Virus record (IMG/VR): IMGVR_UViG_3300037419_003079
Origin: a virus
Taxonomy: Duplodnaviria; Heunggongvirae; Uroviricota; Caudoviricetes
Length of the DNA stretch: 64,000 nt
Strand: one strand, 5' to 3'
Shown here: one piece after another, positions 2,064 through 38,730 of the stretch
Layout: each line of letters starts with the position of its first letter
Numbering within the stretch: the stretch's first letter is position 1
The notes under the pieces: model-generated
What the model saw: only the letters and a program-made list of their open reading frames with translations
Databases searched by the model: none
What the model was told of the DNA's origin: nothing
Made by a program: the position numbers and the translations under genes

Positions 2064-2663
2064 TTAGTTGTATTGTTCTTTTAATTCTTTATAATATTTT
2101 CTGCATACAGGAAGATAGTTATTTCCGGGAGCAACTTGGTCTCCTTCAAATACTGGCTTTCCTGTTGCGTCATCTATACGCATATTGAAGATGGCTTTTC
2201 CTCCACAACAAGGACATATAGTTTTAAATTCTTGGAACTTATCTGCTATTTCAAATAGTCTCCTACTGCCTTCAAATAAGTTTCCAAACGAATCTGTCCT
2301 AAGACCATAAGCCATAACTGGAATATCGAATCTATCTACAATCTCTCCTAGTTCTTCCACTTGCTCTCTAGTTAGAAATTGAGCCTCGTCAACTAGGACA
2401 ACCGATATATCAAGTGATTCCATACTATCTAAGAATCTCATATAGTCTAATAGTAGATTTCCTCTGTCGTTATCAAGAACCATATCTACTTTACGCTTAA
2501 TATCTAATGCTCTTGATATTACATAAGCACCATCTCTTGTGTCTAGTTTGGGCTTTACGACTAGTACTCTGTGATTTCTTTCTTCGTAGTTGTGTGCAAC
2601 CATGAGTAATTGTGCTGATTTACTTGCGTTCATTGGTGCGTGAATCCAGTGTAGACTAGCCAT
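2064..2663 (-). CDS. tdk: thymidine kinase
   Basis: 199 aa. P-loop region plus C-terminal zinc ribbon (CPCCGGKA ... PVCRKYY) typical of type II TK. The DEAQF motif is present. Confidence 0.9.
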   Translation of the reverse strand: MASLHWIHAPMNASKSAQLLMVAHNYEERNHRVLVVKPKLDTRDGAYVISRALDIKRKVDMVLDNDRGNLLLDYMRFLDSMESLDISVVLVDEAQFLTREQVEELGEIVDRFDIPVMAYGLRTDSFGNLFEGSRRLFEIADKFQEFKTICPCCGGKAIFNMRIDDATGKPVFEGDQVAPGNNYLPVCRKYYKELKEQYN

Positions 2664-2952
2664 TATAAGTCACCTCCTCATATGTCTCATAAAATATGTT
2701 TTCTTTACATGGGTAAGTTTCACCCATTACTCCTGTAATAATAAAATCACCTTCTGACACGAGCATATGTCCTTCAAGAGTAGGTATGTAGTATCTTCCA
2801 TCTTTAGCAGACTTAGAACCCCACAGACCACTAAGACTAGCGTGGTCTCTTATAGTAGGGTATTTTGAACTGTCTTTTATGTATTCATCTTCAAAGAATT
2901 GGATTGCGTCAATAACAACTGGTTTCTTTCTGTATTTCTTATTCTCAGCCAT
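2656..2952 (-). CDS. hypothetical protein (98 aa)
   Basis: ORF translationally coupled to tdk (8-nt overlap). It lies in the same operon. Confidence 0.55.
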   Translation of the reverse strand: MAENKKYRKKPVVIDAIQFFEDEYIKDSSKYPTIRDHASLSGLWGSKSAKDGRYYIPTLEGHMLVSEGDFIITGVMGETYPCKENIFYETYEEVTYNG

Positions 2953-3349
2953 TGTACAACTCTCCTAATATTTCAGGGAAAATCTCTGACCAGTCATCAC
3001 TTATTCTTTCAATGTCGCTTTCTTCGCACTCACTTCCAAATTGAATTTCCATAAATTCCAATCCTCTATCTAGTGCCTTAACACTATGCAGACTTCCAAT
3101 TGGAATATCCATATTAGAACCTTGTTTTACAAATCTTACTTCTCCATCTTGCACAAAAAGTCCTTCTCCATTAATAACTGTCCATACTTCTTGACGGTGA
3201 AAATGTTTTTGATAACTAATGTGACAATGTGGATTAACAAAGATTCGTTTAATCTTGCAATGCTTTCTGCCTCTGATTTGAAAATTAAGTACTTCATAGC
3301 TACCCCATCTAGTAGGGATAATTGTGTTTAATTCTTCATTTTTAATCAT
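2945..3349 (-). CDS. cupin-fold protein
   Basis: 134 aa. The HxH...E...H-like region (HCHISYQKHFHRQEVWTVINGEG ... SLHSVKA) is consistent with a cupin metal site. Confidence 0.55.
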   Translation of the reverse strand: MIKNEELNTIIPTRWGSYEVLNFQIRGRKHCKIKRIFVNPHCHISYQKHFHRQEVWTVINGEGLFVQDGEVRFVKQGSNMDIPIGSLHSVKALDRGLEFMEIQFGSECEESDIERISDDWSEIFPEILGELYNG

Positions 3350-3381
3350 ATCAAGTACCTCCGTTTTTGTTTATATTTATA

Positions 3382-3409
3382 TTATAAATGTTTTATAAAA
3401 AATTGTCAA
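3382..3409 (-). promoter_or_regulatory. sigma-A consensus promoter (TTGACA-17-TATAAT) for the cupin-tdk-nuclease-PQ operon
   Basis: Reverse complement reads CCTTGACAATTTTTTATAAAACATTTATAATAT. Confidence 0.75.
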
Positions 3410-3471
3410 GGAATAATATTTGAATAACTACATATAATATTATTGGAGAGGCTGTGCCATTAGTCCTGTCC

Positions 3472-3501
3472 TTGACAAAACGTGTGTTCTTATGGTAAAA
3501 T
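3472..3501 (+). promoter_or_regulatory. divergent sigma-A promoter (TTGACA-18-TAAAAT) for 3524..3796
   Basis: CTTGACAAAACGTGTGTTCTTATGGTAAAATAG sits ~25 nt upstream of the RBS of the plus-strand gene. Confidence 0.65.
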
Positions 3502-3523
3502 AGACTCATAAGGAGTGATATAA

Positions 3524-3796
3524 ATGGCAAACAATAGAGACAATAAAATAGTACACATCGACCCAATATATATAAAATACCGTAAGATGTGGAAAGAAAA
3601 CAGATGGCAGTTCAGTGGAGATTTGGTTAAGTTAACAATAAAGCAAAACAAAGTTGGATTAGACAATATAGAGAAACATGCTATGGATACGATGAATAGA
3701 GTGATTAACGAAAACGATGGTAAATGGACAGAAGGATATGAATACGATAACGGTATACTTAGTAAGATAAAAAATAATAGAGATAAGAAGAAATGA
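3524..3796 (+). CDS. hypothetical basic protein (90 aa)
   Basis: Own promoter, AAGGAG RBS and own terminator. It is the only plus-strand gene in the left arm. Confidence 0.6.
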   Translation: MANNRDNKIVHIDPIYIKYRKMWKENRWQFSGDLVKLTIKQNKVGLDNIEKHAMDTMNRVINENDGKWTEGYEYDNGILSKIKNNRDKKK

Positions 3797-3821
3797 CCAC
3801 TTTATAGTGGTTATTTTTTTG
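3796..3821 (+). terminator. rho-independent terminator
   Basis: ACCACTTTATAGTGGT stem-loop followed by TATTTTTTT. Confidence 0.75.
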
Positions 3822-3835
3822 TTTAAATTTCCCTT

Positions 3836-3868
3836 TAAAAAAAGAGCCTAAGTAAATTACTTGGCTCT
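3836..3868 (-). terminator. rho-independent terminator after DHFR gene
   Basis: AGAGCC...GGCTCT stem overlapping the stop codon. A7 on the plus strand gives U7 on the minus-strand transcript. Confidence 0.65.
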
Positions 3869-4339
3869 ATCGTAAACTTCAAATATTAAGTCATATCCAT
3901 TATCAACTTCATGAGTTCTTCTTAATTCCTTCCACTCACTGAAATCTACCATAGGGAAGTAAGCGTCAGCACCTTCTATAACAGTGTGAACATTTGTTAT
4001 GTATAGTCTATCTGCATACGGTAAAAATTGTTCATATATACTAGAACCACCAATTATAAATGTATCTAAAAATTGAGACTCTTTAGCTGTCTTTAAAACC
4101 TTATCTATATCATCAGTAACGACAATGTTATCTGTTTCTTTCATAGTTTTACTTAATACTACATTGATTCGGTTTGGTAGTGGCTTTCCTATACTTTCAT
4201 AGGTATTCCTACCCATTACCACTATATGACCTTCTGTTATACGCTTAAAGTAAGCTAGGTCTTTTGGCAAGTGCCAAGGTAGTTCATTGTTCTTTCCTAT
4301 TGCATTTTTTCTGTCCTTACATACGATTAAATTAATCAT
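3857..4339 (-). CDS. folA: dihydrofolate reductase
   Basis: 160 aa. N-terminus MINLIVCKDRKNAIGKNNELPWHLPKDLAYFKRIT is a classic DHFR signature. Confidence 0.9.
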   Translation of the reverse strand: MINLIVCKDRKNAIGKNNELPWHLPKDLAYFKRITEGHIVVMGRNTYESIGKPLPNRINVVLSKTMKETDNIVVTDDIDKVLKTAKESQFLDTFIIGGSSIYEQFLPYADRLYITNVHTVIEGADAYFPMVDFSEWKELRRTHEVDNGYDLIFEVYDRAK

Positions 4340-4523
4340 CTCTTTCTGCCTCCTTGCTGACCATTGCTGATATTACCTCTATAATTCCTAATAGTATTAA
4401 AGATAAGGTGTGGGACATTGCGACACAAACTATCTCGCTAACATCTCTAGATACAAAAGAAGTTCTCACCGAGAATAAAGCTATAACGGTAAGAACTATC
4501 CTTGCAAAATTAAACCTACTCAA
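4332..4523 (-). CDS. possible small membrane protein between thyA and folA
   Basis: 63-aa hydrophobic ORF that exactly fills the thyA-folA gap and overlaps both neighbours. It has only a TTG start and no clear RBS. Confidence 0.3.
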   Translation of the reverse strand: MSRFNFARIVLTVIALFSVRTSFVSRDVSEIVCVAMSHTLSLILLGIIEVISAMVSKEAERDD

Positions 4524-5447
4524 CTACAAACCTACAGACACATTACCTTTAATTGGAGGAAATGGGTCATATCCTTCTATTTCAAAATCATCAACTTTAT
4601 AATCGAAGATACTATCAGGTTTTCTTTTGATTATCAATTTAGGTAACTCTTTAGGTTCTCTAGTTAATTGTAATTTTACTTGCTCAATATGATTATTGTA
4701 GATATGAGCGTCACCTATTGTATGTACGAAATCTCCTACTTCTAAATCACATTGTTGTGCTATCATATGAGTTAATAGTGCATAACTTGCAATATTATAA
4801 GGGATTCCTAAGAATACATCTCCTGAACGCTGATATAACTGACAAGATAACTTTCCATCAGCTACATAGAACTGGAATAAAACATGACATGGTGGTAAAG
4901 CCATTTCTTCAATCTGTCCTACATTCCATGCACTAACAATTAATCTTCGACTGTTAGGGTTTATATTGATTTGTTCAATAAGATTTGAGATTTGGTCAAT
5001 GGTAACTGCTACAAACATTTCGTCATCGTAGTTAAATTCTGAATCAGCATACCAACTTCTCCATTGAGAACCGTAGATAGGTCCGAGGTCTCCCTCCCAT
5101 ATCTTGTGGTCATAGTCTCTAATCATTTGAACATATTCTTTTTGATTAAGTTCTGTATTAGGGAATCTTTCTTTGAAGTTTCTGTATGCGTCAGGATTCC
5201 ATATATTAACTCCATTGTCAACTAGATATTTAATATTTGTGTCTCCTTCTAAGAACCAAAGTAGTTCATGAATAATTCCTTGTAATCTAACTCCACTCAT
5301 ATCTTTTGTTGTCATAAGTGGAAATCCTTTTGATAAGTCATATCTCATTTGATATCCGAAAACTGAGATAGTTCCTGTTCCTGTTCTATCTCCTTTTTGT
5401 GTTCCGTTTTCTAATATGTGACTACATAAGTCATGATATTGTTTCAT
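4524..5447 (-). CDS. thyA: thymidylate synthase (ThyA family)
   Basis: 307 aa with a PPCH catalytic-Cys motif ([13 protein letters not shown]). The adjacent DHFR argues for a genuine dTMP synthase. Confidence 0.85.
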
Positions 5448-6211: not shown

Positions 6212-6240
6212 TTAAAGGAGGGAAAACCCTCCTCGTATTA
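6212..6240 (-). terminator. hairpin/weak terminator after ClpP-like gene
   Basis: GGAGGG-AAAA-CCCTCC stem, then UUUAAAC on the minus-strand transcript. Confidence 0.35.
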
Positions 6241-6855
6241 AAACTCTAAGCTTGAGATTAACTCGTCTGCTACACCTAATTCAATAGATTCGTCACCGAA
6301 GAAGAACCATTCTTCTTTGTACTTATCTTTGTATTGCTCAGGAGTAATCTTTGTGTTGCCTAAGATATAAGCCTTAACTCGTTCCTCTTGACGCTTTTGA
6401 AACTCAACTTGGTCGATAACCTGACCTGTAGTTCCTGACGCACCTGATGAACCTTGGTGAATTAAGACTACTGAATCTTTGTAAGTGAAACGCTTATGTC
6501 CTGCGATAAAGATTAATCCTCCTGCTGACCAAGCCTTACCTAAGTTATATGTATAAACAGGTGTTTTACTTAACTGAATAGTATTGATGATAGTATTACA
6601 TGCTACTAAATCTCCACCGTAACAGTTGATAAAAATCTTAATTGGTTTGCGTTGCTCAACTGGTAAGTCTTTGTCTTCTTTGTTATAGCGAATGATATGT
6701 TCAGCGATTTCTGCGATAATATCGTCTTCAACTACTTCGGGCAAGTATAACTCACGGTTCTCAAGTTTTTCTGCATATAGTAATTCGTCAACCTTTGATG
6801 TTGTGTTCATGTTTCCTAATTGTAGTAATAATTTGTTTTGATTCATGCCATTCAC
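6238..6855 (-). CDS. ClpP-like serine protease (Clp protease proteolytic subunit family, paralog 1)
   Basis: 205 aa. Ser-His-Asp arrangement: KAWSAGG (Ser) and LIHQGSSG (His). Not at the prohead-protease position. Confidence 0.75.
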   Translation of the reverse strand: MNGMNQNKLLLQLGNMNTTSKVDELLYAEKLENRELYLPEVVEDDIIAEIAEHIIRYNKEDKDLPVEQRKPIKIFINCYGGDLVACNTIINTIQLSKTPVYTYNLGKAWSAGGLIFIAGHKRFTYKDSVVLIHQGSSGASGTTGQVIDQVEFQKRQEERVKAYILGNTKITPEQYKDKYKEEWFFFGDESIELGVADELISSLEF

Positions 6856-7914: not shown

Positions 7915-8423
7915 ATAATAACTACCTCCTTAATTCCTTTAACTTCTTTTCTAACTATTTCTATAGGTACAGCATAACCGTAGCTATGATAAAGAACTTT
8001 ATTGCCACTCCTTGTTGCCAACTTTTTCTTGTCGAATCTATCCATGTTTTTTATGAACCACTCTCTAGTAGATGGCATAGGAAGTATGTAGATTGTACTG
8101 CTCTTTACAAAATAATAATGTAAGTAGTCTGCACAGGTATACATAAAACAACCTTGAGTTCCTTTAGTTGCGTTACTAATTGTCTCAAAAAAGAAATTTC
8201 CACTTTCATATGTATCAGACTTAACCTCTATGTTAACAACATTTCTGTTGGTTATATGGATTAAATCTATGTCAAACTCTTGAAACGCTTTGTCATCTTC
8301 TACATTCATTACGTCTATCGTTTCTTCGAGTGAAAAAAGATAATGACTTACCCTATCAATAGCTATCTTTGAAACATCATATTGTTTATTGAAGTCGTAA
8401 GTTTTAATAGCTAAACACCTCAA
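7911..8423 (-). CDS. hypothetical protein, possible PD-(D/E)xK nuclease fold
   Basis: 170 aa. D...E-x-K-like core (DIDLIHI ... NIEVKSD). TTG start. 20-nt overlap with the upstream gene. Confidence 0.4.
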   Translation of the reverse strand: MRCLAIKTYDFNKQYDVSKIAIDRVSHYLFSLEETIDVMNVEDDKAFQEFDIDLIHITNRNVVNIEVKSDTYESGNFFFETISNATKGTQGCFMYTCADYLHYYFVKSSTIYILPMPSTREWFIKNMDRFDKKKLATRSGNKVLYHSYGYAVPIEIVRKEVKGIKEVVII

Positions 8424-8784
8424 CTAAAAGACCTTTCTTTGTAGCGTAGTCTATCATATCTTTAGTTCCTGATGACGTTCCATTCCAAAATGCTAACAGT
8501 ATGTCTGCATAATCACCCATGTCGTGATTACGCTTAATTCCTGCACCTTTATCTGTAGAACCGTCTGCTCTTTTCCATTTAGGTATAAATCTCTTTATCC
8601 TACAATCTCTTTCTCTAGCAAATCTCTCTCCTAATTTGTCAGCACCGTTAGCACCACCCGACACTATCTCCACTTTATCCCATAATTCGGGAGGGAGTTG
8701 TGAACAAATAAAGAAGGCAACCTTATCTGCTAAGTAATCGTAGTCATTAAAGTCTCGACCACCTGCAATTATGATTCTTATCAT
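8404..8784 (-). CDS. SLOG/Rossmann-fold protein (DUF2493 / YpsA-like)
   Basis: 126 aa. IIIAGGRDF ... IVSGGANGADKLGERFA motif is typical of the DprA/LOG-like SLOG clade common in phages. Confidence 0.55.
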   Translation of the reverse strand: MIRIIIAGGRDFNDYDYLADKVAFFICSQLPPELWDKVEIVSGGANGADKLGERFARERDCRIKRFIPKWKRADGSTDKGAGIKRNHDMGDYADILLAFWNGTSSGTKDMIDYATKKGLLVEVFSY

Positions 8785-8895: not shown

Positions 8896-9837
8896 TTACT
8901 TAGTTCCTTTGATTGGTAAGTTGAACAACATATTACCATTGTCACCAATTACTAGGTTCTCAGGTAATTTAATTTTACCTTCTGCTAAACCTTTAGCTAA
9001 TGTTTCTTGAATTTCTAATTGTTTCATCTCTGCTAATGTAGCCATAGCTTGCTTCTTTTTCTGTGCTTGTAGTAATTCAGATTGTGCTTTAGCCTCATTA
9101 GTAGCGTTGGTAATTTTTTGTGCCTCTTGTTCTGCCTTAGCAGTAACTTTTGCTGTTAATGCGTTTTGTACAGCCTCGTCAGAGTAAACTAACTCACCTT
9201 TATAACCAATGTTAGAAATAGTAATACCTTGCTCTTTGAAATACTTAATGACATCTACACTAACTTCATTGATAATGTCAGCCTTGTTAGCACGAATTTC
9301 GTCCATACTACGCTTAGAGAAAGCCTCAATCATTTTCGTTTCTAAACGGTTACGAATTTCATTATCCATGATTTCAGATAAGTGCTTACCTTTGTATGTA
9401 TATAAGAACTTAGGTGTGTCCTCAGGGTGAATAGATGAAGTAGCAGAGATACCTTGTGAGAACTTAATTGAGTCACGAGATTCCGACTTAATAACTTTGT
9501 CTCCAATCCACTCACGAGTCTCAGGGGAACGATTGATTTTTACAACTGAAACAGTGTCAATGTATTTTACTTGCCAGTATCTACGACCTACTTGGATTTC
9601 TTTTTGAGGAATTTGGATTCGCTTACTAGCAACCATGTTCTTCTCTAAGAATTGAACTGAATCGAATTGTTGTTGGTCAGAAGTCTTACCTTCTAACGGT
9701 AATACGAAAGCAGTCTCATTAGCGTCAATAGTGACGAACTTAGGCTTGTTATAAGGCTTAACACAACCTGTTAATGTAGTTGTTAAAGCAATACCTACTA
9801 CTAAAGCACCAATTTTTTTACTTGTTTTCATTTGCAT
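8896..9837 (-). CDS. SPFH/band-7 (stomatin/prohibitin-like) lipoprotein
   Basis: 313 aa. Lipoprotein signal MQMKTSKKIGALVVGIALTTTLTG-C, then an SPFH core, then a coiled-coil tail (AKAEQEAQK ... ELLQAQKKKQA). Confidence 0.75.
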   Translation of the reverse strand: MQMKTSKKIGALVVGIALTTTLTGCVKPYNKPKFVTIDANETAFVLPLEGKTSDQQQFDSVQFLEKNMVASKRIQIPQKEIQVGRRYWQVKYIDTVSVVKINRSPETREWIGDKVIKSESRDSIKFSQGISATSSIHPEDTPKFLYTYKGKHLSEIMDNEIRNRLETKMIEAFSKRSMDEIRANKADIINEVSVDVIKYFKEQGITISNIGYKGELVYSDEAVQNALTAKVTAKAEQEAQKITNATNEAKAQSELLQAQKKKQAMATLAEMKQLEIQETLAKGLAEGKIKLPENLVIGDNGNMLFNLPIKGTK

Positions 9838-10092: not shown

Positions 10093-10713
10093 TTATTCAA
10101 TTGCGAAATTTCCTGCTTGAACATCTTCTCTTTTCAGACGAGTAATAGCAATCTTAGATTCTACTACACCTAGCTTAATAGCCTCGTCAGTATCAAAATA
10201 CCAATCTTTGACTGTATCTTGCATATTAGCAATCTCGTCTGCACGAATATTAGTTCTTTCTAAGACAAATTTATTAACCTTGCTTCTCATAAACTTCTCT
10301 ACAGCCTCCATGCGTCTTTGGTGTTCTGTGAAAGTACCACCTTGACCATATGAAATGTCATGGAACATAAACACTGTATGTTCGTATGAATAACGCTTAT
10401 GTCCTGCTAGTAAAATTGGGATACCCATACTAGCTACCATTCCTAATCCAATAGTATGTACTGGTGTCTTACTATTTCTGATGATGTCCATCAATCCTAG
10501 ACCTGATGTTACAGAACCACCGGGAGTATTGATAGTCAAGAAGATAGGGAATTTACTTCTGTCGTGATTGTTATAAGTAGCCTTCTCTTTTGCGTCATCA
10601 ATTCGATTGATTTCTACAATCTTCTCGATAATGGCTTTTGTAGAGGTATTACTAACTTCTTCTGATAAAAATAAGTTACGGTTGATTTCGTTAACTGGAA
10701 CCTGTACTGTCAT
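10093..10713 (-). CDS. ClpP-like serine protease (paralog 2), first gene of the protease / small-membrane-protein / SPFH operon
   Basis: 206 aa. TINTPGGSVTSGLGLMD ... MVASMG (Ser) ... MFHD (His). ClpP/NfeD-N (clan SK) organisation. Confidence 0.8.
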   Translation of the reverse strand: MTVQVPVNEINRNLFLSEEVSNTSTKAIIEKIVEINRIDDAKEKATYNNHDRSKFPIFLTINTPGGSVTSGLGLMDIIRNSKTPVHTIGLGMVASMGIPILLAGHKRYSYEHTVFMFHDISYGQGGTFTEHQRRMEAVEKFMRSKVNKFVLERTNIRADEIANMQDTVKDWYFDTDEAIKLGVVESKIAITRLKREDVQAGNFAIE

Positions 10714-12646: not shown

Positions 12647-13165
12647 TTAGATTTTGTAGTACTTCTTAATGGATTCAATAAGTGAGTCTAAGTCAGGAGA
12701 TATACTACCTCCTGAATCTTTGATAGTTCCAACTACATAAAGGTTACGGTATGGAAATTGATTTTCTACAGCGTCCTGAGACAAAGCATGTAATTTTTTC
12801 ATGTTATCTCTACCTTGTTGGCGAATATCTGTAAATAATGCAAATATAGGTCTAGGTTTAGCACCTGTTCTTAACTGATAGTTAATATCAAAACCTGCAA
12901 ACTTACCAATCTCACATGCAACTCCTGAATCTATCTCAACTCCATCAATAACTGCTATCAAAAATTGAGAGTCTAGTAGATATTCATCGTCTCCTCTTGA
13001 GATAGTTAAACTATTAGCATATCCTGTTTTATCATTTAGTGCCTCGTTTTCTTGTGGAACATATAGTTCTAACTCAGGAAACACCAATCTTAGTTCGTTT
13101 GCTATGATAGTATTATATAGATAGTCTGCCTCACTGAATAGTCCGTTTGCTAGGTACGCCTTCAT
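12647..13165 (-). CDS. nucleoside 2-deoxyribosyltransferase-family protein (NDT/Rcl-like)
   Basis: 172 aa. N-terminus MKAYLANGLFSEADYLYN... with a conserved acidic pocket (DSGVACEIG) characteristic of NDT/DNPH1-like enzymes. Confidence 0.6.
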   Translation of the reverse strand: MKAYLANGLFSEADYLYNTIIANELRLVFPELELYVPQENEALNDKTGYANSLTISRGDDEYLLDSQFLIAVIDGVEIDSGVACEIGKFAGFDINYQLRTGAKPRPIFALFTDIRQQGRDNMKKLHALSQDAVENQFPYRNLYVVGTIKDSGGSISPDLDSLIESIKKYYKI

Positions 13166-13695: not shown

Positions 13696-14421
13696 TCAAC
13701 CTTTACCAATTCGCATAATGCTTACTTTAACATGCTTTTGTCTTCCGAACTGTTTAGCAATGCTTTCGTTTCTTACAAGAACGTCTAACTTATGTCCTCT
13801 AATAGCACCACCTTTATCTAACGCTTGTGCGTAGAATGTTTCTCCACGAGCCTCAATCTTGATAATGGAGTACATAGGAATCACATTAGGGTCTACTGCT
13901 ACAACCCTCATTCCATCTACTTTAGTGGTATTTGCTACATTGTATCCTGTCGATGTCATTCCAGTGCAACCTTCTGAACAAAAGGCTGTGTAGGCTGTCG
14001 CCTCCATATAAAGAACTCTCTTAGCTTGTTGTTGTGATTTCACCACTTTGGTTTTTCTGATATTGTTCTTTTGCCTTACCGAGGGAGATTCACTTCCATC
14101 TTTATATGTTTCAATCTTCTTCTTTAGGTTTGCGTTCTCTTTTGTAAGATTAGCAATCTTGCTGTTCATTCGTTGTGCTTCTTGTAAATGTTTTTGTTTT
14201 TCTAAATCTTTCTTTTGAAGGTCAACTTTCGCTTGGAAAAGCCTATCCTCAAGACTATCAATCTGCATGTTTAAATCTACTCTCTCTTTTTGCATATCTC
14301 TCGCATTGGTCTCGGAAATTATTGCTCCTGCTCCGAATGTTGTCAGACCTGCTAATAAAATAGCTACGGATAAGATATTCATAGACTTAGAAAAGAATTT
14401 TTTCTCCTCCATTACTATCAT
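13696..14421 (-). CDS. membrane-anchored 3D-domain protein (MltA/YabE/YuiC-like cell-wall-active domain)
   Basis: 241 aa with an N-terminal TM segment, a coiled coil, and a C-terminal 3D domain (YMEATAYTAF ... VVAVDPNVIP ... LDKGGAIRGHKLDVL). Confidence 0.65.
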   Translation of the reverse strand: MIVMEEKKFFSKSMNILSVAILLAGLTTFGAGAIISETNARDMQKERVDLNMQIDSLEDRLFQAKVDLQKKDLEKQKHLQEAQRMNSKIANLTKENANLKKKIETYKDGSESPSVRQKNNIRKTKVVKSQQQAKRVLYMEATAYTAFCSEGCTGMTSTGYNVANTTKVDGMRVVAVDPNVIPMYSIIKIEARGETFYAQALDKGGAIRGHKLDVLVRNESIAKQFGRQKHVKVSIMRIGKG

Positions 14422-14443: not shown

Positions 14444-14472
14444 ATTATACACGCCCTTCCATATCTTGTCAA
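14444..14472 (-). promoter_or_regulatory. sigma-A consensus promoter (TTGACA-17-TATAAT)
   Basis: Reverse complement reads CCCCTTGACAAGATATGGAAGGGCGTGTATAATACAATTATAAT. Confidence 0.75.
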
Positions 14473-14486
14473 GGGGTGTCCCTGAG

Positions 14487-14516
14487 TAAAATAAAAGAGA
14501 GGCTAAATGCCCCTCT
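14487..14516 (-). terminator. weak terminator after MBL-fold gene
   Basis: AGAGG-N9-CCTCT stem followed by a U-rich tract (CUUUUAUUUUAC) on the minus-strand RNA. Confidence 0.3.
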
Positions 14517-15294
14517 ATTTAACTTCAAAACTGTAAGTCTCTCTTGGTAGTGCAATTCTCATAAATGAATCTTTAACCTCTAAGTAATGTTCTTCTAGGT
14601 CATCTCCGTAGTGCATTATGAAAATATTTCGTTTATACTTGTTTGGCAATGATTTAAGTTCTTCAAGTGAAGCGTGCACCTTACCATCATAATCAAACAT
14701 TTGGCAATCATGGAAAATAGCTTGTGCACCGTCTTTAACTGCCATCTTAATAAATTCTTCGTTAAACAATGAATCAGATGTGTAAACTATGTAATCGTGT
14801 TCTGAGATAATTAAGCCATATGACTTTTTCTTAGGGATATGCTCAGTGCTATAGACTGAAATCATGCAATCGTTAAAGAAGAAGTATTGGTCTCTATCGT
14901 TAACAATTTCATATGTAAAGTAATCATCAAATTTCATTTGTCTATCTAATTCGCCTTCTACCATAGTTCCTTTAAGGACTTTATTCCACAAATCATTTTT
15001 TAAATCTACATGAGGGAAAATAAGGTGTGGCTTTTTCTTTAAAACATATCGTCCAAAGAATCCTGCCTCCTCTAGTCCGTATACATGGTCTCCGTGGAGG
15101 TGAGTAATAAAAATAGCGTCAATATCTGACCATGAGAACTCTGATTTAAATAAATCATCAGGTGTTGTTCTTCCACAGTCAATCATCATATTCTTTTTTA
15201 CTTCTCCATTTGTTACAGTTAACACTGCACTGTTATTGCCAAAGTTCTTAGCAAATGCACTTCCTGTTCCTAGAAAAGTTAAGTCTATTTTCAT
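14515..15294 (-). CDS. metallo-beta-lactamase-fold hydrolase (RNase Z / cyclic-nucleotide phosphodiesterase-like; Apyc1-like candidate)
   Basis: 259 aa. HxHxDH motif (ITHLHGDHVYG) plus downstream His/Asp ligands. Last gene of its operon. Confidence 0.8.
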   Translation of the reverse strand: MKIDLTFLGTGSAFAKNFGNNSAVLTVTNGEVKKNMMIDCGRTTPDDLFKSEFSWSDIDAIFITHLHGDHVYGLEEAGFFGRYVLKKKPHLIFPHVDLKNDLWNKVLKGTMVEGELDRQMKFDDYFTYEIVNDRDQYFFFNDCMISVYSTEHIPKKKSYGLIISEHDYIVYTSDSLFNEEFIKMAVKDGAQAIFHDCQMFDYDGKVHASLEELKSLPNKYKRNIFIMHYGDDLEEHYLEVKDSFMRIALPRETYSFEVK

Positions 15295-15809
15295 AGGTCT
15301 ATCCTCTCCTCTAACACTTCGTTGTACATTACCAATAAATCAATAATACCATCTAGGTCATCTAAGGAGTTCATTAAGATTTCTAACTCCCAAAACATGT
15401 AGTAACTGCTTTTATCGTCTTTTTCTCTATGGTTAAAGACTTGTTTTACTTGGATACTAACTCTTTCGCTATGATGTGCAAACTTCAACAACATCTTAAC
15501 AAGTTCTATCCAATCAGAACGCTTATGTGGAACAACTTTGATATAAAGGTCTTCACCTATATTTTTAGCTGACATAACTTTCACATCAGCAATAGCAAAT
15601 AGTTCTCCAACAATCTTGTTTTTATAACTTAAAAATTCTAGTGATTCTCGACATTCTTCTTCTGTCATAACCTCTTTTACAAATCCATATCCTTCGCAAT
15701 ATCCACAATCAGTCCAATTTGAGTCTAGGAAGTCTTGTTTCACCTTCCTAAACCCACCTTTTCCATGACATACTGGACACGCTACATTGTAAGGTGTTAC
15801 AGTTTCCAT
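15291..15809 (-). CDS. zinc-finger protein (172 aa; start refined to METVTPYN with AAGGAGG RBS)
   Basis: CPVCHGKGG ... CGYCEGYG treble-clef-like Cys pairs. Overlaps the MBL gene by 4 nt. Confidence 0.5.
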   Translation of the reverse strand: METVTPYNVACPVCHGKGGFRKVKQDFLDSNWTDCGYCEGYGFVKEVMTEEECRESLEFLSYKNKIVGELFAIADVKVMSAKNIGEDLYIKVVPHKRSDWIELVKMLLKFAHHSERVSIQVKQVFNHREKDDKSSYYMFWELEILMNSLDDLDGIIDLLVMYNEVLEERIDL

Positions 15810-15823
15810 GATAATCCTCCTTT

Positions 15824-16513
15824 TTATTTGCCATACATTAATCGTTGCCAAGCACCGTCAGAGAATCCTGCTCGTTGCATTTGACCAACTGTTCTGTCTA
15901 CCGCATAAGGGATTCGATAAAAAGTTACAATGTCTTTTTCAACATCATACACTGCATATGAGGCTCTAGGGTCTCCATCACGAGGAGAACCAACTGAGCC
16001 AACATTGATAATTGCTCTTTTGCCATCTAAGTGCGTAGAGTAATATGACATATGTAAGGGTGATTTAATAAACTCTGCTTTGTTGTATGAATTTACAAAA
16101 CTTATAGATGGTGCGAACATATTTCCTACAAACAACATTTCAAAGTCTCCTAAAAATCCTTGTGGTGTTTCTCTTGAGAATACAATTTCATCTAACCTAT
16201 GACTATCTACTAAGTTTTTCAAATATGATACTTCTTTTCCTAATTTTTCTCTTGTCCAATCTACTGCAAATCTTGATTGAGGAGTCAATCCAAAGCTTGC
16301 GTCCTCGTCAACTACTGCTAAGTCATGGTCTCCCATAACTATGTAATGAAACTCCTCTAATGTTAGAGTTAATGTCTCATTTGGTTTCGGTCCATTACCA
16401 ACAATGTTGCCTAGGTGAACTTTCATGTCCACTCCGACACTGTTCATATGTTCCAATACTGATTGCAGTGCATATAGATTGGAATGTGTATCTGATACAA
16501 TTCCAATTTTCAT
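15824..16513 (-). CDS. calcineurin-like metallophosphoesterase
   Basis: 229 aa. N-terminus MKIGIVSDTHSN ... GD(H)D ... GN(H/I)VG motifs of the MPP superfamily. Confidence 0.8.
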   Translation of the reverse strand: MKIGIVSDTHSNLYALQSVLEHMNSVGVDMKVHLGNIVGNGPKPNETLTLTLEEFHYIVMGDHDLAVVDEDASFGLTPQSRFAVDWTREKLGKEVSYLKNLVDSHRLDEIVFSRETPQGFLGDFEMLFVGNMFAPSISFVNSYNKAEFIKSPLHMSYYSTHLDGKRAIINVGSVGSPRDGDPRASYAVYDVEKDIVTFYRIPYAVDRTVGQMQRAGFSDGAWQRLMYGK

Positions 16514-16737
16514 TTTTTAATCTTCCTCTCGACTATTTTTTTAACGATTGGGTAGTGGTCTCCGTCTGTGAAGTATTTGACTCGTTTATCGCATTGGTCA
16601 CACTCTGAAATGAAAAACATTTCATTATTTTCTACTCCATAATCCTTTGTGATTGGCTTTAAATTATAAAGGCACTCAGGGCATTTTGGTTTCTTACCAT
16701 CTTTGAAAAACACAGCGTCTAGTACTTCTTTAGCCAT
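16510..16737 (-). CDS. small zinc-ribbon protein (75 aa)
   Basis: CPECLYN ... CDQCDKR pairs of Cys. Overlaps both neighbours by 4 and 1 nt. Confidence 0.5.
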   Translation of the reverse strand: MAKEVLDAVFFKDGKKPKCPECLYNLKPITKDYGVENNEMFFISECDQCDKRVKYFTDGDHYPIVKKIVERKIKK

Positions 16738-17309
16738 TATTGACCACCTACAATCTCAATTATTTCTTTCTCAATTTCTGATAGTGTCTTTCTAGTTGTG
16801 TCTACATGATGAAATTTAACATTGTCATATGTATGTTTTATAGTGAAGTCTTGCATAATAGTTTTATATAGGTTTTGCTGTTTAATTGTTTCTGCTACAC
16901 TTTCTTCTGCTTTTCCAAAAGGAACTTTGTCTCTTAGTAGTCGTCCTTTTAGTTCTTCTTCGTCTTCGATAGTAAAGAATATAACGTCTACTTGCATAGC
17001 CATTCTTTTTAAGTTAAAAACTAGATGTCGATAGTCATTAGAAAAGTCATAGTCTTTATATAATTCCGAGAAAACTCTCTCAGAGAAAAAGAATCTATCA
17101 AAGACAAAAGTTGAATCATGATATTTCATTGTTTTTAGAAATTCGTACCAGTTCCAGTAGTACTCTGCTATTTTTTCGTGTCCTTCTGCTCCATCGTCAT
17201 GAAAACCAGTTGGATTAATCAAAGTAATTTCTGAAACTTTTTCTCGAATTGCTCTTGCAATAGTAGATTTTCCAGTTCCACGACCACCTTCAAGAATTAT
17301 AAGTCTCAT
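16737..17309 (-). CDS. P-loop nucleotide/polynucleotide kinase (dNMP-kinase or Pnk-kinase-like)
   Basis: 190 aa. Walker A motif EGGRGTGKST near the N-terminus, with lid-like basic residues. It is the first gene of a kinase / Zn-ribbon / MPP / Zn-finger / MBL operon. Confidence 0.65.
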   Translation of the reverse strand: MRLIILEGGRGTGKSTIARAIREKVSEITLINPTGFHDDGAEGHEKIAEYYWNWYEFLKTMKYHDSTFVFDRFFFSERVFSELYKDYDFSNDYRHLVFNLKRMAMQVDVIFFTIEDEEELKGRLLRDKVPFGKAEESVAETIKQQNLYKTIMQDFTIKHTYDNVKFHHVDTTRKTLSEIEKEIIEIVGGQ

Positions 17310-17343: not shown

Positions 17344-17372
17344 ATTATAAACTAAAAACTAAAAAAAGTCAA
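17344..17372 (-). promoter_or_regulatory. sigma-A consensus promoter (TTGACT-17-TATAAT)
   Basis: Reverse complement reads CCTTGACTTTTTTTAGTTTTTAGTTTATAATATAAATG. Confidence 0.75.
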
Positions 17373-17409: not shown

Positions 17410-17465
17410 AGCAACAAGTAGCGAAGGTTGCTTGTCCCACAAACTAAATGAGGAGGAATGTCACA

Positions 17466-18392
17466 ATGACAATTACCTACGAAAGAGGAAAATGGATTGA
17501 ACTAGGAAAACAGTTGGAGGTAGTAGTTGCCAAAAATAATGAACTTCCTAAGCCAAGAAAAAAATCTTTAACTGAGTTATTTAAAGACTTTGCTAGAGAA
17601 CATAACACAACTTATAGTTCTGCTCAATTTTATTATTACAACGATATTAAGCCAAAGGTTGATAGAAATGAATTGGTTTACAACCCTAGGTCATATGATG
17701 ATGAACTAAACAACTATATGAACAACACTCAAGTAGACCCTATATTTAGAAACACAAAAAACGTTAGAAATGTTCACAAGATTGGAACTATCGTACAAGG
17801 AGAAATCGTTGGTCTAACAGACTTTGGTGCTTTTCTTAGAACAGAACAAGGATTTGAAGGACTTATACACATATCTCAAATTACAGAAAAAGATTTCGTT
17901 ACGCTTCCTGAGGACTATTTTTATATTGGTGAAAAAGTTAAAGCTAAAGTCATGAGATATGACGGAAACAAACTTAATTTATCAACCAAGGCAACAGGAG
18001 GAAAAGAAAAGATAAATCCTGTTTTCAAAGATTTAAGTTTAAAGAAAACTGAAATACAAGAAACTAAGAAAGTAACTCCGAAAGTAATACAAAAACCAAA
18101 AGAAGTTGTACATGAGACCAAAGTAGAACCTAAAGTTATAGAGGACAATACAAAAGTAGTTCCAATTAGTACATCTAACAATGATAAAGATAACATAATC
18201 AACTTTATTAAGAGATATTCTGATAATAACGTATCTCAAAAGGCACTTGGAGATTTAGACGACTTAATCTCTGAATATGGAGTTTTCCAAACAACTATAT
18301 CACTAATGGAAACTGTTCGTGATTTAGATATTTCTTCTTTCATTACCGAGATGACAAAAGAAAGGCTTGAAGGTGAATATCTTAGGCAATAA
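17466..18392 (+). CDS. S1 RNA-binding-domain protein with Lys-rich C-terminal extension
   Basis: Start refined to the ATG at 17466 (GAGGAGGA RBS). S1/OB core GTIVQGEIVGLTDFGAFLRT ... GLIHISQI ... GEKVKAKV. Confidence 0.75.
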   Translation: MTITYERGKWIELGKQLEVVVAKNNELPKPRKKSLTELFKDFAREHNTTYSSAQFYYYNDIKPKVDRNELVYNPRSYDDELNNYMNNTQVDPIFRNTKNVRNVHKIGTIVQGEIVGLTDFGAFLRTEQGFEGLIHISQITEKDFVTLPEDYFYIGEKVKAKVMRYDGNKLNLSTKATGGKEKINPVFKDLSLKKTEIQETKKVTPKVIQKPKEVVHETKVEPKVIEDNTKVVPISTSNNDKDNIINFIKRYSDNNVSQKALGDLDDLISEYGVFQTTISLMETVRDLDISSFITEMTKERLEGEYLRQ

Positions 18393-18668: not shown

Positions 18669-18860
18669 CTAAATTTATAATACACTTATATTTTAACATA
18701 GTCAAGAGTATCTGCAAAAAAACATGCTTTGAATCGTAAATATTTAATAAAAAGAATTATTTAGTATTTATATATCTTTTAGTAATTACTAAGTAATTAT
18801 ATTATATTTATTTATTATTTATTAATATATATATTTATATATATAACTGTCCAAAGTTGA
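18669..18860. repeat. AT-rich region with (TA)n/TATTTA simple repeats and a 6-bp inverted repeat ACTGTC-N7-GACAGT
   Basis: More than 85% A+T over ~190 bp. ATATATATTTATATATATAACTGTCCAAAGTTGACAGTCC lies immediately upstream of the sigma-factor gene. Confidence 0.6.
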
Positions 18861-18901
18861 CAGTCCCCAAAATTGACCCTATAAAAAGGAGGTGCGTTAA
18901 T

Positions 18902-19558
18902 ATGTCAAGAATTGAAAAAGAAGAACATTTAAAAGGACTTATAAATATTGTGCAAAACTCTGATAATGGATATGAGAAAGAAAACGCCATGATGGAGGTA
19001 CTTAATAAATTTGAACCTTTCAGAAGGTCTTTAACGAAGAAATTCGCAGGAAAAGGAGTAGACTTCGATGATGTGTGTCAAGTAATTGATTTAAAGCTAA
19101 TTGAAGCTATGTATGATTATGATGAAAAACTAGATTCATCTGCTATTAGGCATATCACATCTAAGGCAAGGAATGGAGTATTTAATTTCTACAAGAAAGA
19201 AATGAACTACTTTAAAGAAGACCGTAAAACTATTAGCATTGACCAATCATTTTACAATATTTCTCACAACGGATACAAATTAACTATTGATGATTCATCT
19301 TGGATTGAGGCTTATTTTGAAGAAGAATTTGACGAAGATAAAATCATAGATAAGATTATGTTAGAACAAGGATTGACAAATTTAACAGAACATCAAAGAG
19401 AATTAATACATATGTACTATTGGGCAGATATGACCCAAGAGGAGATTGCAGAAGAACTACAGATACACCAAGCAAATGTATCAAGGGCAACAAAAAGAGG
19501 AGTCAAGAGACTCAAAGAGAATCTTAACCCCTTGGGTGAGCAGTCCGATAAGCTTTAG
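18902..19558 (+). CDS. phage-encoded sigma-70-family sigma factor (sporulation/ECF-like size)
   Basis: Start refined to the ATG at 18902 (AGGAGG RBS). Region-4 HTH LTEHQRELIHMYYWADMTQEEIAEELQIHQANVSRATKRGVKRLKE, with a region-2-like helix upstream. Confidence 0.75.
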   Translation: MSRIEKEEHLKGLINIVQNSDNGYEKENAMMEVLNKFEPFRRSLTKKFAGKGVDFDDVCQVIDLKLIEAMYDYDEKLDSSAIRHITSKARNGVFNFYKKEMNYFKEDRKTISIDQSFYNISHNGYKLTIDDSSWIEAYFEEEFDEDKIIDKIMLEQGLTNLTEHQRELIHMYYWADMTQEEIAEELQIHQANVSRATKRGVKRLKENLNPLGEQSDKL

Positions 19559-20393
19559 ACATCTGCTCATTAGCAATAGTTGTATAAACGGTAGTTGTGT
19601 TTATGTCTGCATGACCTAGTAGTTCTTGTATATATCTAATATCAGCACCGTTAGCATGTAAGTGAGTAGCGTAACTATGTCTAAACATGTGTGGGTGAAC
19701 TTCACCATCTGAATACTTATAAACTATTCTACGAGCGTTTCTAGTCGTCATAGGAAGACTAGGGGTTCTTCTACTAGCAAACACATAAGGACTGTTGTAG
19801 TTCCTAGTTTCAAGGTGTCTTGCTATAGCATTTAGAGCAGGATTATTAATAGGTACTAGTCGTTCCTTATTTCCTTTTCCAAGCAACTTAACAGTTCTAT
19901 TTTCTAAGTCTATGTCGTCAACTTTAATAATCACTAATTCACCTACACGACAACCTACTCCATACAATGTTTCCATTATCGCTCTATCTTGCTCATTATC
20001 AATGGAGTCCAATATTCTAGAAGTTTCATTTACTGTCATTACATTAGGTAGTTTCTTGGCTATCTTGGCATTATCAATATCTAGAGCGTCATTATGCTCT
20101 ATCACTCCTTCTTTCTTTAAAAATGTCATGAAAGAGCGAATAGCAGATAATTTTCGTCTTCTAGTTGTAGGTGCTAAAGAATTAATGTCGGCAAGGAACT
20201 TTCTGATTGTTGATTTATTAAGTTGCTCTATATTCACAATAGAACTAGATTCAAAGTATTGATTTAAATCTTTTTTATAACTGATTACCGTGTTATTAGA
20301 TAAATTCTTTTCAACACTCATGTAGTTTAAGAAATCATTTAAATAGTTATCCATATTTATCAGCCTCCGATTTGTTTTGTTCCTATAACACAA
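19524..20393 (-). CDS. tyrosine recombinase, XerC/XerD-like (no N-terminal arm-binding domain)
   Basis: 289 aa. C-terminal catalytic box HMFRHSYATHLHANGADIRYIQELLGHADINTTTVYT (R..H..R..Y). Convergent with, and overlapping by 35 nt, the sigma-factor gene. Confidence 0.9.
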   Translation of the reverse strand: MCYRNKTNRRLINMDNYLNDFLNYMSVEKNLSNNTVISYKKDLNQYFESSSIVNIEQLNKSTIRKFLADINSLAPTTRRRKLSAIRSFMTFLKKEGVIEHNDALDIDNAKIAKKLPNVMTVNETSRILDSIDNEQDRAIMETLYGVGCRVGELVIIKVDDIDLENRTVKLLGKGNKERLVPINNPALNAIARHLETRNYNSPYVFASRRTPSLPMTTRNARRIVYKYSDGEVHPHMFRHSYATHLHANGADIRYIQELLGHADINTTTVYTTIANEQMSKAYRTAHPRG

Positions 20394-38638: not shown

Positions 38639-38730
38639 GAAGGTAAAGGGTAGGGTTAGGTTTTCAGGTGAACTATACCCTTCCCTATTTTTTATATAAA
38701 CGTACAAATTTTAAGAAGGAGGTTAAAGAG

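What the first reader, a model, noticed from the sequence alone, without database searches (positions are those of the whole stretch)
14515..17309. Five-gene operon: P-loop kinase, Zn-ribbon, metallophosphoesterase, Zn-finger protein, MBL-fold hydrolase. Possible split Pnkp-like RNA-repair or anti-Pycsar module
Cellular polynucleotide kinase-phosphatases (Pnkp) join a P-loop 5'-kinase to a calcineurin-like 2',3'-phosphatase. Here they are adjacent as separate genes (16737-17309 and 15824-16513), in a phage that carries its own tRNA(s). This suggests end-healing of tRNAs cut by host anticodon nucleases (as T4 Pnk/Rnl do). No ligase is seen in the window. Independently, the terminal MBL-fold gene (14515-15294; THLHGDH) has the size and fold class of Apyc1, the phage anti-Pycsar cyclic-mononucleotide phosphodiesterase found in Bacillus phages. 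Alternatively the kinase is simply a dNMP kinase, and the MBL enzyme is RNase Z/PhnP-like.
Basis: inference. Interest (0 to 1): 0.65.

Follow-up and report, generated by a model that had tools for sequence, protein, structure and literature searches.

The report
Phage Apyc1 operon with dead phosphoesterase
This five-gene phage operon is not an RNA-repair module: it joins an ordinary thymidylate-kinase-like nucleotide kinase to a clear member of the known anti-Pycsar enzyme family Apyc1, together with a phosphoesterase that has lost its metal-binding active site and a small zinc-finger protein of unknown role.

The parts
17344..17372 (-). sigma-70-type promoter-like site (TTGACT-17-TATAAT) for the operon
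   Evidence: Consensus scan, 11 of 12 matches. TTGAC and TTATAATATAA are invariant in 8 relatives within a variable spacer. Function as a promoter is inferred.
16737..17309 (-). thymidylate-kinase-like P-loop (d)NMP kinase, 190 aa
16510..16737 (-). 75-aa CxxC...CxxC zinc-ribbon protein, optional in the clade
   Evidence: Only phrog_2993 (unknown function) at 7e-4. Present in the window, L009, L011/L012 and L019/L020; absent from L005, L008, L010 and L013.
15824..16513 (-). calcineurin-like metallophosphoesterase-fold protein with degenerate active site (probable pseudoenzyme), 229 aa
   Evidence: PF12850 54.8 bits. PDB 3rqz 8e-27. D36N, N62D, H114R, H131N, H133F and a deletion of about 20 aa, compared with 26 canonical clade members. 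It groups with P0004/P0005/P0026, which share the deletion and the N62 and H131 losses. dN/dS within that subclade is 0.12-0.27.
15291..15809 (-). 172-aa protein: N-terminal double CxxCxGxG zinc knuckle plus alpha/beta C-terminal domain; lineage-restricted orphan family
14515..15294 (-). Apyc1-family MBL-fold cyclic-mononucleotide phosphodiesterase, 259 aa
   Evidence: PF23023 Anti-Pycsar_Apyc1 128.1 bits (cutoff 50), E 5e-37, covering residues 1-256. PDB 7t28 1e-42, 7u2r 3e-38, 7u2s 2e-35, against YhfI-type 6kns at 1.5e-3. 38% identical to SBSphiJ Apyc1. H65/H67/D69/H70, E75, H152, D174, H195, D196 and H228 are invariant.
14496..14516 (-). intrinsic-terminator-like hairpin plus T-run ending the operon
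   Evidence: 8-bp stem with 5 GC pairs, then TTTATTTT. An equivalent hairpin and T-run are seen in most of the 8 relatives. Function is inferred.

Best explanation
The block is one early transcription unit read by host RNA polymerase, and it combines two unrelated functions. (a) The first gene is a thymidylate-kinase-like (d)NMP kinase. It belongs to the phage's nucleotide-supply set: ThyA, DHFR, thymidine kinase and nucleoside deoxyribosyltransferase lie in the same minus-strand block. It most likely phosphorylates dTMP or other (d)NMPs. (b) The last three genes, MPE, ZnF and Apyc1, are a clade-specific conserved cassette. Its enzymatically competent member is Apyc1, a two-zinc MBL phosphodiesterase. 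By homology to SBSphiJ and Bsp38 Apyc1, it should hydrolyse 3',5'-cCMP and cUMP (and other cNMPs) to 5'-NMPs. That would remove the second messenger that activates Pycsar effectors and so prevent abortive infection. In this phage the MPE cannot assemble a two-metal centre. It is retained as a non-catalytic protein, whose role may be structural, ligand-binding or as a partner of another protein. In most relatives the MPE is a canonical phosphodiesterase of the 3rqz/SapH type with unknown substrate. Shown here: gene structure, family membership, active-site state, synteny and selection. Inferred: all substrates, the anti-Pycsar effect, any role of ZnF, and any interaction within the triad.
For: Operon boundaries and their conservation. 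Apyc1 membership: with defining features from PMC9117128. Kinase. In Thrax1 and PJN02 the kinase lies in the replication module, and in 0305phi8-36 it lies next to the nrd genes, each time without MPE or Apyc1. Thymidylate genes in the window. MPE degeneracy. The signature D..GD..GNH[E/D]..H..GHxH consists of metal- or phosphate-binding residues (PMC8366450), and a single motif substitution abolishes activity in a phage MPE (PMC12287305). Triad invariance: about 20 loci, including L022 and L025, where the kinase is replaced. Purifying selection on the dead MPE subclade: dN/dS 0.12-0.27 at dS 0.72-0.79.
Against: No biochemistry exists for any protein of this clade. The window Apyc1 is only 38% identical to the tested enzymes. 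The residue aligned with SBSphiJ Y112 is Glu, and it varies within the clade. The Apyc1-specific loop could not be checked structurally. Apyc1-like enzymes also occur in bacteria, where their role is unknown (PMC9117128), and Apyc1 genes sit in nucleotide-metabolism neighbourhoods both here and in Herelleviridae, so a purely metabolic role is not excluded. The kinase scores below the curated cutoffs of PF02223 and TIGR00041, so its substrate is open. For the window MPE itself dS is saturated, so selection is shown only for its sister lineages. The triad is confined to one phage lineage, and none of 80 bacterial Apyc1 loci has the ZnF or a full-length MPE nearby; one has a weak partial MPE hit. 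The linkage could therefore be inheritance and not function.
Confidence: 0.7

Rival explanations
1. Split Pnkp-like RNA end-healing module. The kinase would phosphorylate 5'-OH ends and the MPE would remove 2',3'-cyclic or 3'-phosphates from tRNAs cut by host anticodon nucleases.
For: A P-loop kinase and a calcineurin-fold protein lie in one operon. The phage carries a tRNA. The Pnkp phosphatase domain (4j6o; identity of this entry from my own knowledge) is a distant superfamily match of the MPE family profile, E 1.5e-4 over about 75 residues.
Against: The kinase fold and profile are TMPK/YorR-like, and the Pnkp kinase 4gp6 ranks only 47th. The window MPE lacks 5 of 8 signature residues. The MPE family is closer to 3rqz (3e-86) and SapH-type Ap4A hydrolase/PDE (4e-20) than to lambda phosphatase or Pnkp (about 1e-4). 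The kinase and the MPE are inherited independently. No ligase or Hen1 was found in the window.
Confidence: 0.03
2. Multi-signal anti-defence cassette. MPE, ZnF and Apyc1 would act together against nucleotide-signalling immunity. In most relatives the active MPE would degrade a second class of signal (for example cyclic oligonucleotides, 2',3'-cyclic or polyphosphate-linked nucleotides). In this phage's subclade the dead MPE would have become a binder (sponge) or a scaffold, and ZnF would be an adaptor or inhibitor.
For: The triad is invariant in every locus whose Apyc1 is at least 54% identical to the window protein, while the flanking genes turn over. The genes are tightly packed. The ZnF family exists only in this position. 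The dead MPE is kept under purifying selection, and its C-terminal third (63-71% identity) is better conserved than its catalytic core (47-57%). The nearest characterised relatives of the MPE are nucleotide phosphodiesterases and Ap4A hydrolases. Anti-defence genes tend to cluster (PMC9117128).
Against: There is no evidence outside one phage lineage: 12 other phage Apyc1 loci and 80 bacterial ones lack the ZnF, and only one bacterial locus has a weak partial MPE hit. No substrate can be inferred. Loss of the metal centre would also weaken phosphate binding, which argues against a sponge. The ZnF fold is uninformative. No complex prediction was possible.
Confidence: 0.2
3. Pure nucleotide-salvage operon. 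The MBL enzyme and (in relatives) the MPE would break down host cyclic or oligonucleotide pools to NMPs, and the kinase would feed these back towards (d)NTPs, with no dedicated anti-defence role.
For: The operon lies in a nucleotide-metabolism block. The slot upstream of the triad always holds a nucleotide-related gene: TMPK-like kinase, guanylate kinase or DUF1599. Apyc1 sits next to nrd genes in Herelleviridae.
Against: Cellular cNMP pools are, to my knowledge, far too small to matter as precursors. The Apyc1 family has a demonstrated anti-Pycsar activity (PMC9117128). The kinase is dispensable for the triad (L022; frameshift in L014).
Confidence: 0.07

Closest known systems
Apyc1 (anti-Pycsar protein 1) of Bacillus phages SBSphiJ and Bsp38 and Paenibacillus homologues; Pfam PF23023; PDB 7T28, 7U2R, 7U2S (Hobbs et al. 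2022, PMC9117128)
   Same: Full-length match above the Pfam cutoff. 37-41% identity to phage Apyc1s. Same length. HxHxDH, the E74 equivalent and the further His/Asp ligands are conserved. Much closer to validated Apyc1s than to YhfI-type cAMP/cGMP phosphodiesterases. Carried by a phage of Bacillales-type hosts.
   Different: A diverged clade (under 41% identity to any cultured-phage Apyc1). The position aligned with Y112 is not Tyr. It is always preceded by an MPE gene and an orphan zinc-finger gene, which no other Apyc1 locus examined has. Activity is untested.
Thymidylate kinases (e.g. PDB 2PLR, 5X7J, 4DWJ, vaccinia 2V54) and SPbeta prophage YorR (PDB 2AXP)
   Different: Scores below the curated cutoffs of PF02223 and TIGR00041. 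Forms its own phage family. Substrate unknown, and YorR itself is uncharacterised.
3RQZ-type metallophosphoesterases (Sphaerobacter thermophilus structural-genomics protein) and SapH/Spr1479-type Ap4A hydrolase/phosphodiesterase (PDB 3QFM; function recalled from my own knowledge)
   Same: The family profile matches 3rqz at 3e-86 and 3qfm at 4e-20. The characteristic C-terminal GSVGQPRDGDPRASY...RLxxGR region is retained. 26 of 32 phage-clade members keep the full signature.
   Different: The window protein has GN, GDHD, R and GNMF in place of GD, GNHD, H and GHTH, and lacks about 20 residues between motifs IV and V. It is predicted to be catalytically dead. The family's natural substrate is unknown.
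Bacterial Pnkp (Clostridium thermocellum Pnkp; kinase PDB 4GP6, phosphatase 4J6O) and T4 polynucleotide kinase-phosphatase
   Same: Only at superfamily level: a P-loop kinase and a calcineurin-fold domain encoded side by side.
   Different: The kinase is of a different subfamily. The phosphatase active site is absent. There is no ligase or Hen1 partner. The genes are not co-inherited.

Membership tests
Apyc1 (anti-Pycsar MBL phosphodiesterase) | Full-length match to the family model above its curated threshold | tested here: met
   PF23023: 128.1 bits against a cutoff of 50; residues 1-256 on profile positions 1-246 of 250
Apyc1 (anti-Pycsar MBL phosphodiesterase) | HxHxDH zinc-binding motif (SBSphiJ H64/H66/D68/H69) and the further His/Asp ligands of the MBL fold | tested here: met
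   H65, H67, D69, H70, H152, D174, H195, D196 and H228 are invariant across the window, six clade members, SBSphiJ, BSP38 and Goe25. Motif definition from PMC9117128.
Apyc1 (anti-Pycsar MBL phosphodiesterase) | Catalytic Glu from the opposing protomer (SBSphiJ E74) | tested here: met
   E75 lies in GLEE, which is invariant
Apyc1 (anti-Pycsar MBL phosphodiesterase) | Catalytic Tyr from the opposing protomer (SBSphiJ Y112) | tested here: inconclusive
   The aligned position is E in the window and E/V/Q/R in the clade. The deposited Paenibacillus Apyc1 7u2r has Q there in the alignment, so the residue is not universal. The loop also contains indels.
Apyc1 (anti-Pycsar MBL phosphodiesterase) | Closer to validated Apyc1 enzymes than to cAMP/cGMP-preferring YhfI-type MBL phosphodiesterases | tested here: met
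   7t28 1e-42, 7u2r 3e-38 and 7u2s 2e-35, against 6kns at 1.5e-3 (that 6kns is YhfI is from my own knowledge)
Apyc1 (anti-Pycsar MBL phosphodiesterase) | Apyc1-specific extended loop reaching into the nucleotide pocket; homodimer | not tested
Apyc1 (anti-Pycsar MBL phosphodiesterase) | Hydrolysis of cCMP/cUMP with relaxed base specificity, and protection from Pycsar | not testable with these tools
   Needs biochemistry and a phage challenge
Pnkp / T4 Pnk (polynucleotide kinase-phosphatase end-healing) | Kinase domain of the polynucleotide 5'-kinase type | tested here: not met
Pnkp / T4 Pnk (polynucleotide kinase-phosphatase end-healing) | Active binuclear metallophosphoesterase site (DxH, GD, GNH[D/E], H, GHxH) | tested here: not met
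   D36N, N62D, H114R, H131N and H133F; there is no HxH anywhere in the protein
Pnkp / T4 Pnk (polynucleotide kinase-phosphatase end-healing) | Associated RNA ligase or adenylyltransferase (and Hen1) | tested here: not met
   No such Pfam domain in 40 ORFs scanned across the window, which covers most but not all ORFs of at least 90 aa. Only 64 kb of a roughly 166-kb genome was available.
Pnkp / T4 Pnk (polynucleotide kinase-phosphatase end-healing) | Kinase and phosphatase inherited together | tested here: not met
   Kinase without MPE in Thrax1, PJN02 and 0305phi8-36. MPE with DUF1599 (L022) or a guanylate kinase (L025) in place of this kinase.
Thymidylate-kinase-like NMP kinases | P-loop, DR[YFH] motif, basic lid, and TMPK fold | tested here: met
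Thymidylate-kinase-like NMP kinases | Score above the curated thresholds of PF02223 or TIGR00041 (dTMP kinase equivalog) | tested here: not met
   23.3 bits against 27, and 24.4 against 83.25. It is therefore filed as TMPK-like and not as a dTMP kinase.
Calcineurin-like metallophosphoesterases (Metallophos_2) | Fold or family match above threshold | tested here: met
   PF12850: 54.8 bits against 27. 3rqz at 8e-27.
Calcineurin-like metallophosphoesterases (Metallophos_2) | Complete metal- and phosphate-binding signature | tested here: not met
   5 of 8 positions are non-canonical, whereas 26 of 32 clade members have none. A member by descent, but not a functional phosphoesterase by sequence.

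The most novel reading that the evidence does not exclude
MPE, ZnF and Apyc1 are a three-component counter-defence cassette. The phosphoesterase, active in most relatives, would remove a second immune nucleotide that Apyc1 does not handle. In this phage's subclade it would have been converted into a non-catalytic binder or scaffold, kept by selection, and the orphan zinc-finger protein would be its partner. That would be the first accessory module described for Apyc1, and an example of a dead phosphodiesterase repurposed in phage immune evasion.
Probability: 0.2. Interest if true: 0.6.

Novelty: new member of a known kind. Interest (0 to 1): 0.35.

Why it matters
The finding extends the Apyc1 anti-Pycsar family to an uncultured lineage of large (about 150-170 kb) Bacillaceae-type phages, at under 41% identity to any cultured example. 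It also removes a tempting but wrong annotation (phage Pnkp/RNA repair). The useful lead is the invariant MPE-ZnF-Apyc1 triad. It offers a natural series of active and inactivated phosphoesterases next to a known anti-defence enzyme. That series could show whether Apyc1 works with partners, and whether phages turn dead enzymes into binders. If the triad is only an inherited arrangement, the locus is ordinary.

Full report
OBSERVATION. Reading the strand shows that the fourth gene most likely starts at the ATG at 15809, behind AAAGGAGG, and not at the TTG at 15851; this gives 172 aa. The genes are packed tightly, with overlaps of 1 and 4 bases and one 15-base spacer. A TTGACT-17-TATAAT site lies 35 bases upstream of the kinase start. 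A GC-rich hairpin with a T-run begins at the stop codon of the last gene, and a perfect TTGACA-17-TATAAT promoter for the next gene (a 3D-domain protein) follows. In eight relatives whose proteins are only 45-70% identical, the -35/-10 elements and the arrangement of terminator plus downstream promoter are conserved in otherwise variable spacers. The 'five-gene operon' is therefore a real, bounded transcription unit. Promoter and terminator activity are inferred.

WHAT EACH GENE IS. MBL protein (14515-15294): it matches Pfam PF23023 'Anti-Pycsar protein Apyc1' over its whole length at 128 bits, against a cutoff of 50. Its best solved relatives are the three Apyc1 crystal structures (7t28 1e-42, 7u2r 3e-38, 7u2s 2e-35). 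RNase Z entries match only the N-terminal motif region, and the YhfI-type entry 6kns scores 1.5e-3. It is 37-41% identical to Apyc1 of SBSphiJ, BSP38 and Goe25. Hobbs et al. [quoted passage not shown] In my alignment, H65/H67/D69/H70, E75 and the further ligands H152, D174, H195, D196 and H228 are invariant. The position aligned with Y112 is Glu here and varies in the clade, but it is also Gln in the deposited Paenibacillus Apyc1 (alignment). The loop and the dimer were not tested.

Metallophosphoesterase (15824-16513): it has the fold (Metallophos_2 54.8 bits; 3rqz 8e-27), but the active site is gone. The superfamily signature D..GD..GNH[E/D]..H..GHxH is made of metal- and phosphate-binding residues, and the metals are essential for catalysis (PMC8366450). 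A single motif substitution abolishes activity in a phage MPE (PMC12287305). Against 31 phage-clade relatives and 24 bacterial homologues, the window protein reads GN for GD, GDHD for GNHD, R for the motif IV His, and GNMF for GHTH. It also lacks about 20 residues between motifs IV and V. Five of eight tabulated positions are non-canonical, whereas 26 of 32 clade members have none. There is no HxH anywhere in the sequence. The identical protein is on record from seven contigs, so this is not a sequencing error. As a family, these MPEs are closest to the uncharacterised 3rqz (3e-86) and to a SapH-type Ap4A hydrolase/phosphodiesterase (3qfm, 4e-20). Lambda phosphatase, ApaH and the Pnkp phosphatase domain are superfamily-level matches near 1e-4.

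Zinc proteins: the 75-aa Zn-ribbon is optional in the clade. The 172-aa protein has an invariant pair of CxxCxGxG knuckles and a divergent alpha/beta C-terminal domain (model pLDDT 81). It gives no informative fold match. Its family has only 21 cluster representatives among 1.84 billion proteins; all are 153-178 aa except one 84-aa fragment, and none is fused to another domain.

COMPARATIVE CONTEXT. The MPE's close relatives (42-59% identity) all come from one uncultured phage lineage with contigs up to 173 kb. One contig is binned with a Psychrobacillus MAG. The large terminase is at most 30% identical to those of cultured phages, and the best hits are Bacillus phages. In about 20 loci, every Apyc1 that is at least 54% identical to the window protein is immediately preceded by the ZnF gene and the MPE gene. 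The 12 phage loci with more distant Apyc1 genes (at most 41% identity; Herelleviridae and others) have neither. The slot upstream of the MPE varies. Most loci have the TMPK-like kinase, L022 has a DUF1599 protein, L025 has a true guanylate-kinase family member (PF00625, 53 bits), and L014 has a frameshifted kinase. L025 has also lost the S1 and 3D neighbours. The conserved core is therefore the triad MPE-ZnF-Apyc1, not the five genes. Among 80 bacterial Apyc1-like loci, none has the ZnF or the kinase within 6 kb, and one has a weak partial MPE hit. The linkage thus has no support outside this lineage.

THE DEAD PHOSPHOESTERASE IS MAINTAINED. A neighbour-joining tree groups the window MPE with P0004, P0005 and P0026. 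All four share the IV-V deletion and the loss of the motif III Asn and the first motif V His. Full-length ORFs were confirmed in L039 and L040, and the apparent N-terminal truncations are contig-end artefacts. The window lineage lost three further ligands. All four still lie in the same operon next to an intact Apyc1. Within this subclade, where synonymous sites are not saturated (dS 0.72-0.79), dN/dS is 0.12-0.27. For the same genomes, Apyc1 gives 0.07 and ZnF 0.08-0.10. The C-terminal third of the window protein is 63-71% identical to relatives, against 47-57% for the catalytic core. I infer that catalysis was lost once and that the protein was then kept for some non-catalytic role. For the window copy itself only the intact ORF and the long branch can be cited, because dS is saturated.

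MECHANISM. Most likely (confidence about 0.7), host RNA polymerase transcribes the unit early. The kinase serves dNTP supply. Apyc1 hydrolyses the Pycsar messengers cCMP and cUMP, and other cNMPs, to 5'-NMPs, so that Pycsar effectors are not activated; this is the mechanism shown for SBSphiJ Apyc1 (PMC9117128). The window MPE is not an enzyme. Three rivals were weighed. A cooperative three-part anti-defence cassette is given 0.2; it is supported only by invariance within one lineage and by selection on the dead MPE. A purely metabolic salvage operon is given 0.07. The Pnkp-type RNA repair module is given 0.03; it failed all four membership tests.

VERDICT. The locus is a new, diverged member of a known anti-defence family, set in an undescribed but lineage-restricted three-gene arrangement that includes a probable pseudoenzyme. 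Interest is 0.35.

Noticed in passing
window 8404-8784 (-): A 126-aa protein consisting of a YAcAr/YspA-type SLOG domain (PF10686, 48 bits). SLOG domains bind nucleotide-derived ligands (from my own knowledge), so a small phage copy could be a signal sponge or decoy.
   Followed up: no
window 6238-6855 (-), 10093-10713 (-), 8896-9837 (-): Two ClpP protease paralogues and an SPFH/Band-7 protein lie in the early region of the phage.
   Followed up: no
window 2064-5447 (-) and 12647-13165 (-): A complete thymidylate set (thymidine kinase, DHFR, thymidylate synthase) plus a nucleoside 2-deoxyribosyltransferase. An SNase-like nuclease (1647-2051) and a DHH-family protein (291-1298) lie nearby.
   Followed up: partly
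window 13696-14421 (-), promoter 14444-14472: A 3D-domain (cell-wall-binding/lytic type) protein with an N-terminal membrane segment and a coiled coil. It has its own perfect TTGACA-17-TATAAT promoter, whose core is invariant in eight relatives. In Thrax1 and PJN02 the 3D gene sits directly next to the kinase.
   Followed up: partly
L038/L039 versus L040: Between these two related genomes the ZnF genes are 99% identical (dS 0.066), but the adjacent MPE genes are only 74% identical (dS 0.72). This indicates a recombination breakpoint between MPE and ZnF.
   Followed up: no
L022 3435-3728; L025 3033-3620; L014 1165-1748: The gene slot upstream of the MPE turns over. It holds DUF1599 (nucleotide-modification-associated) in L022, a guanylate-kinase family protein in L025, and a kinase with a 1-nt deletion in L014.
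   Followed up: yes
window 17448-18392 (+): A divergently transcribed 314-aa protein with a central S1 RNA-binding domain. It is conserved at this position in nearly all relatives, next to a phage sigma factor (18857-19558) and a tyrosine recombinase (19524-20393).
   Followed up: no
window 38668-47937 (+) and 51755-60307 (+): Two giant ORFs of 3089 and 2850 aa lie in the structural module, presumably a tape-measure protein and a tail or host-recognition protein. They were not analysed.
   Followed up: no
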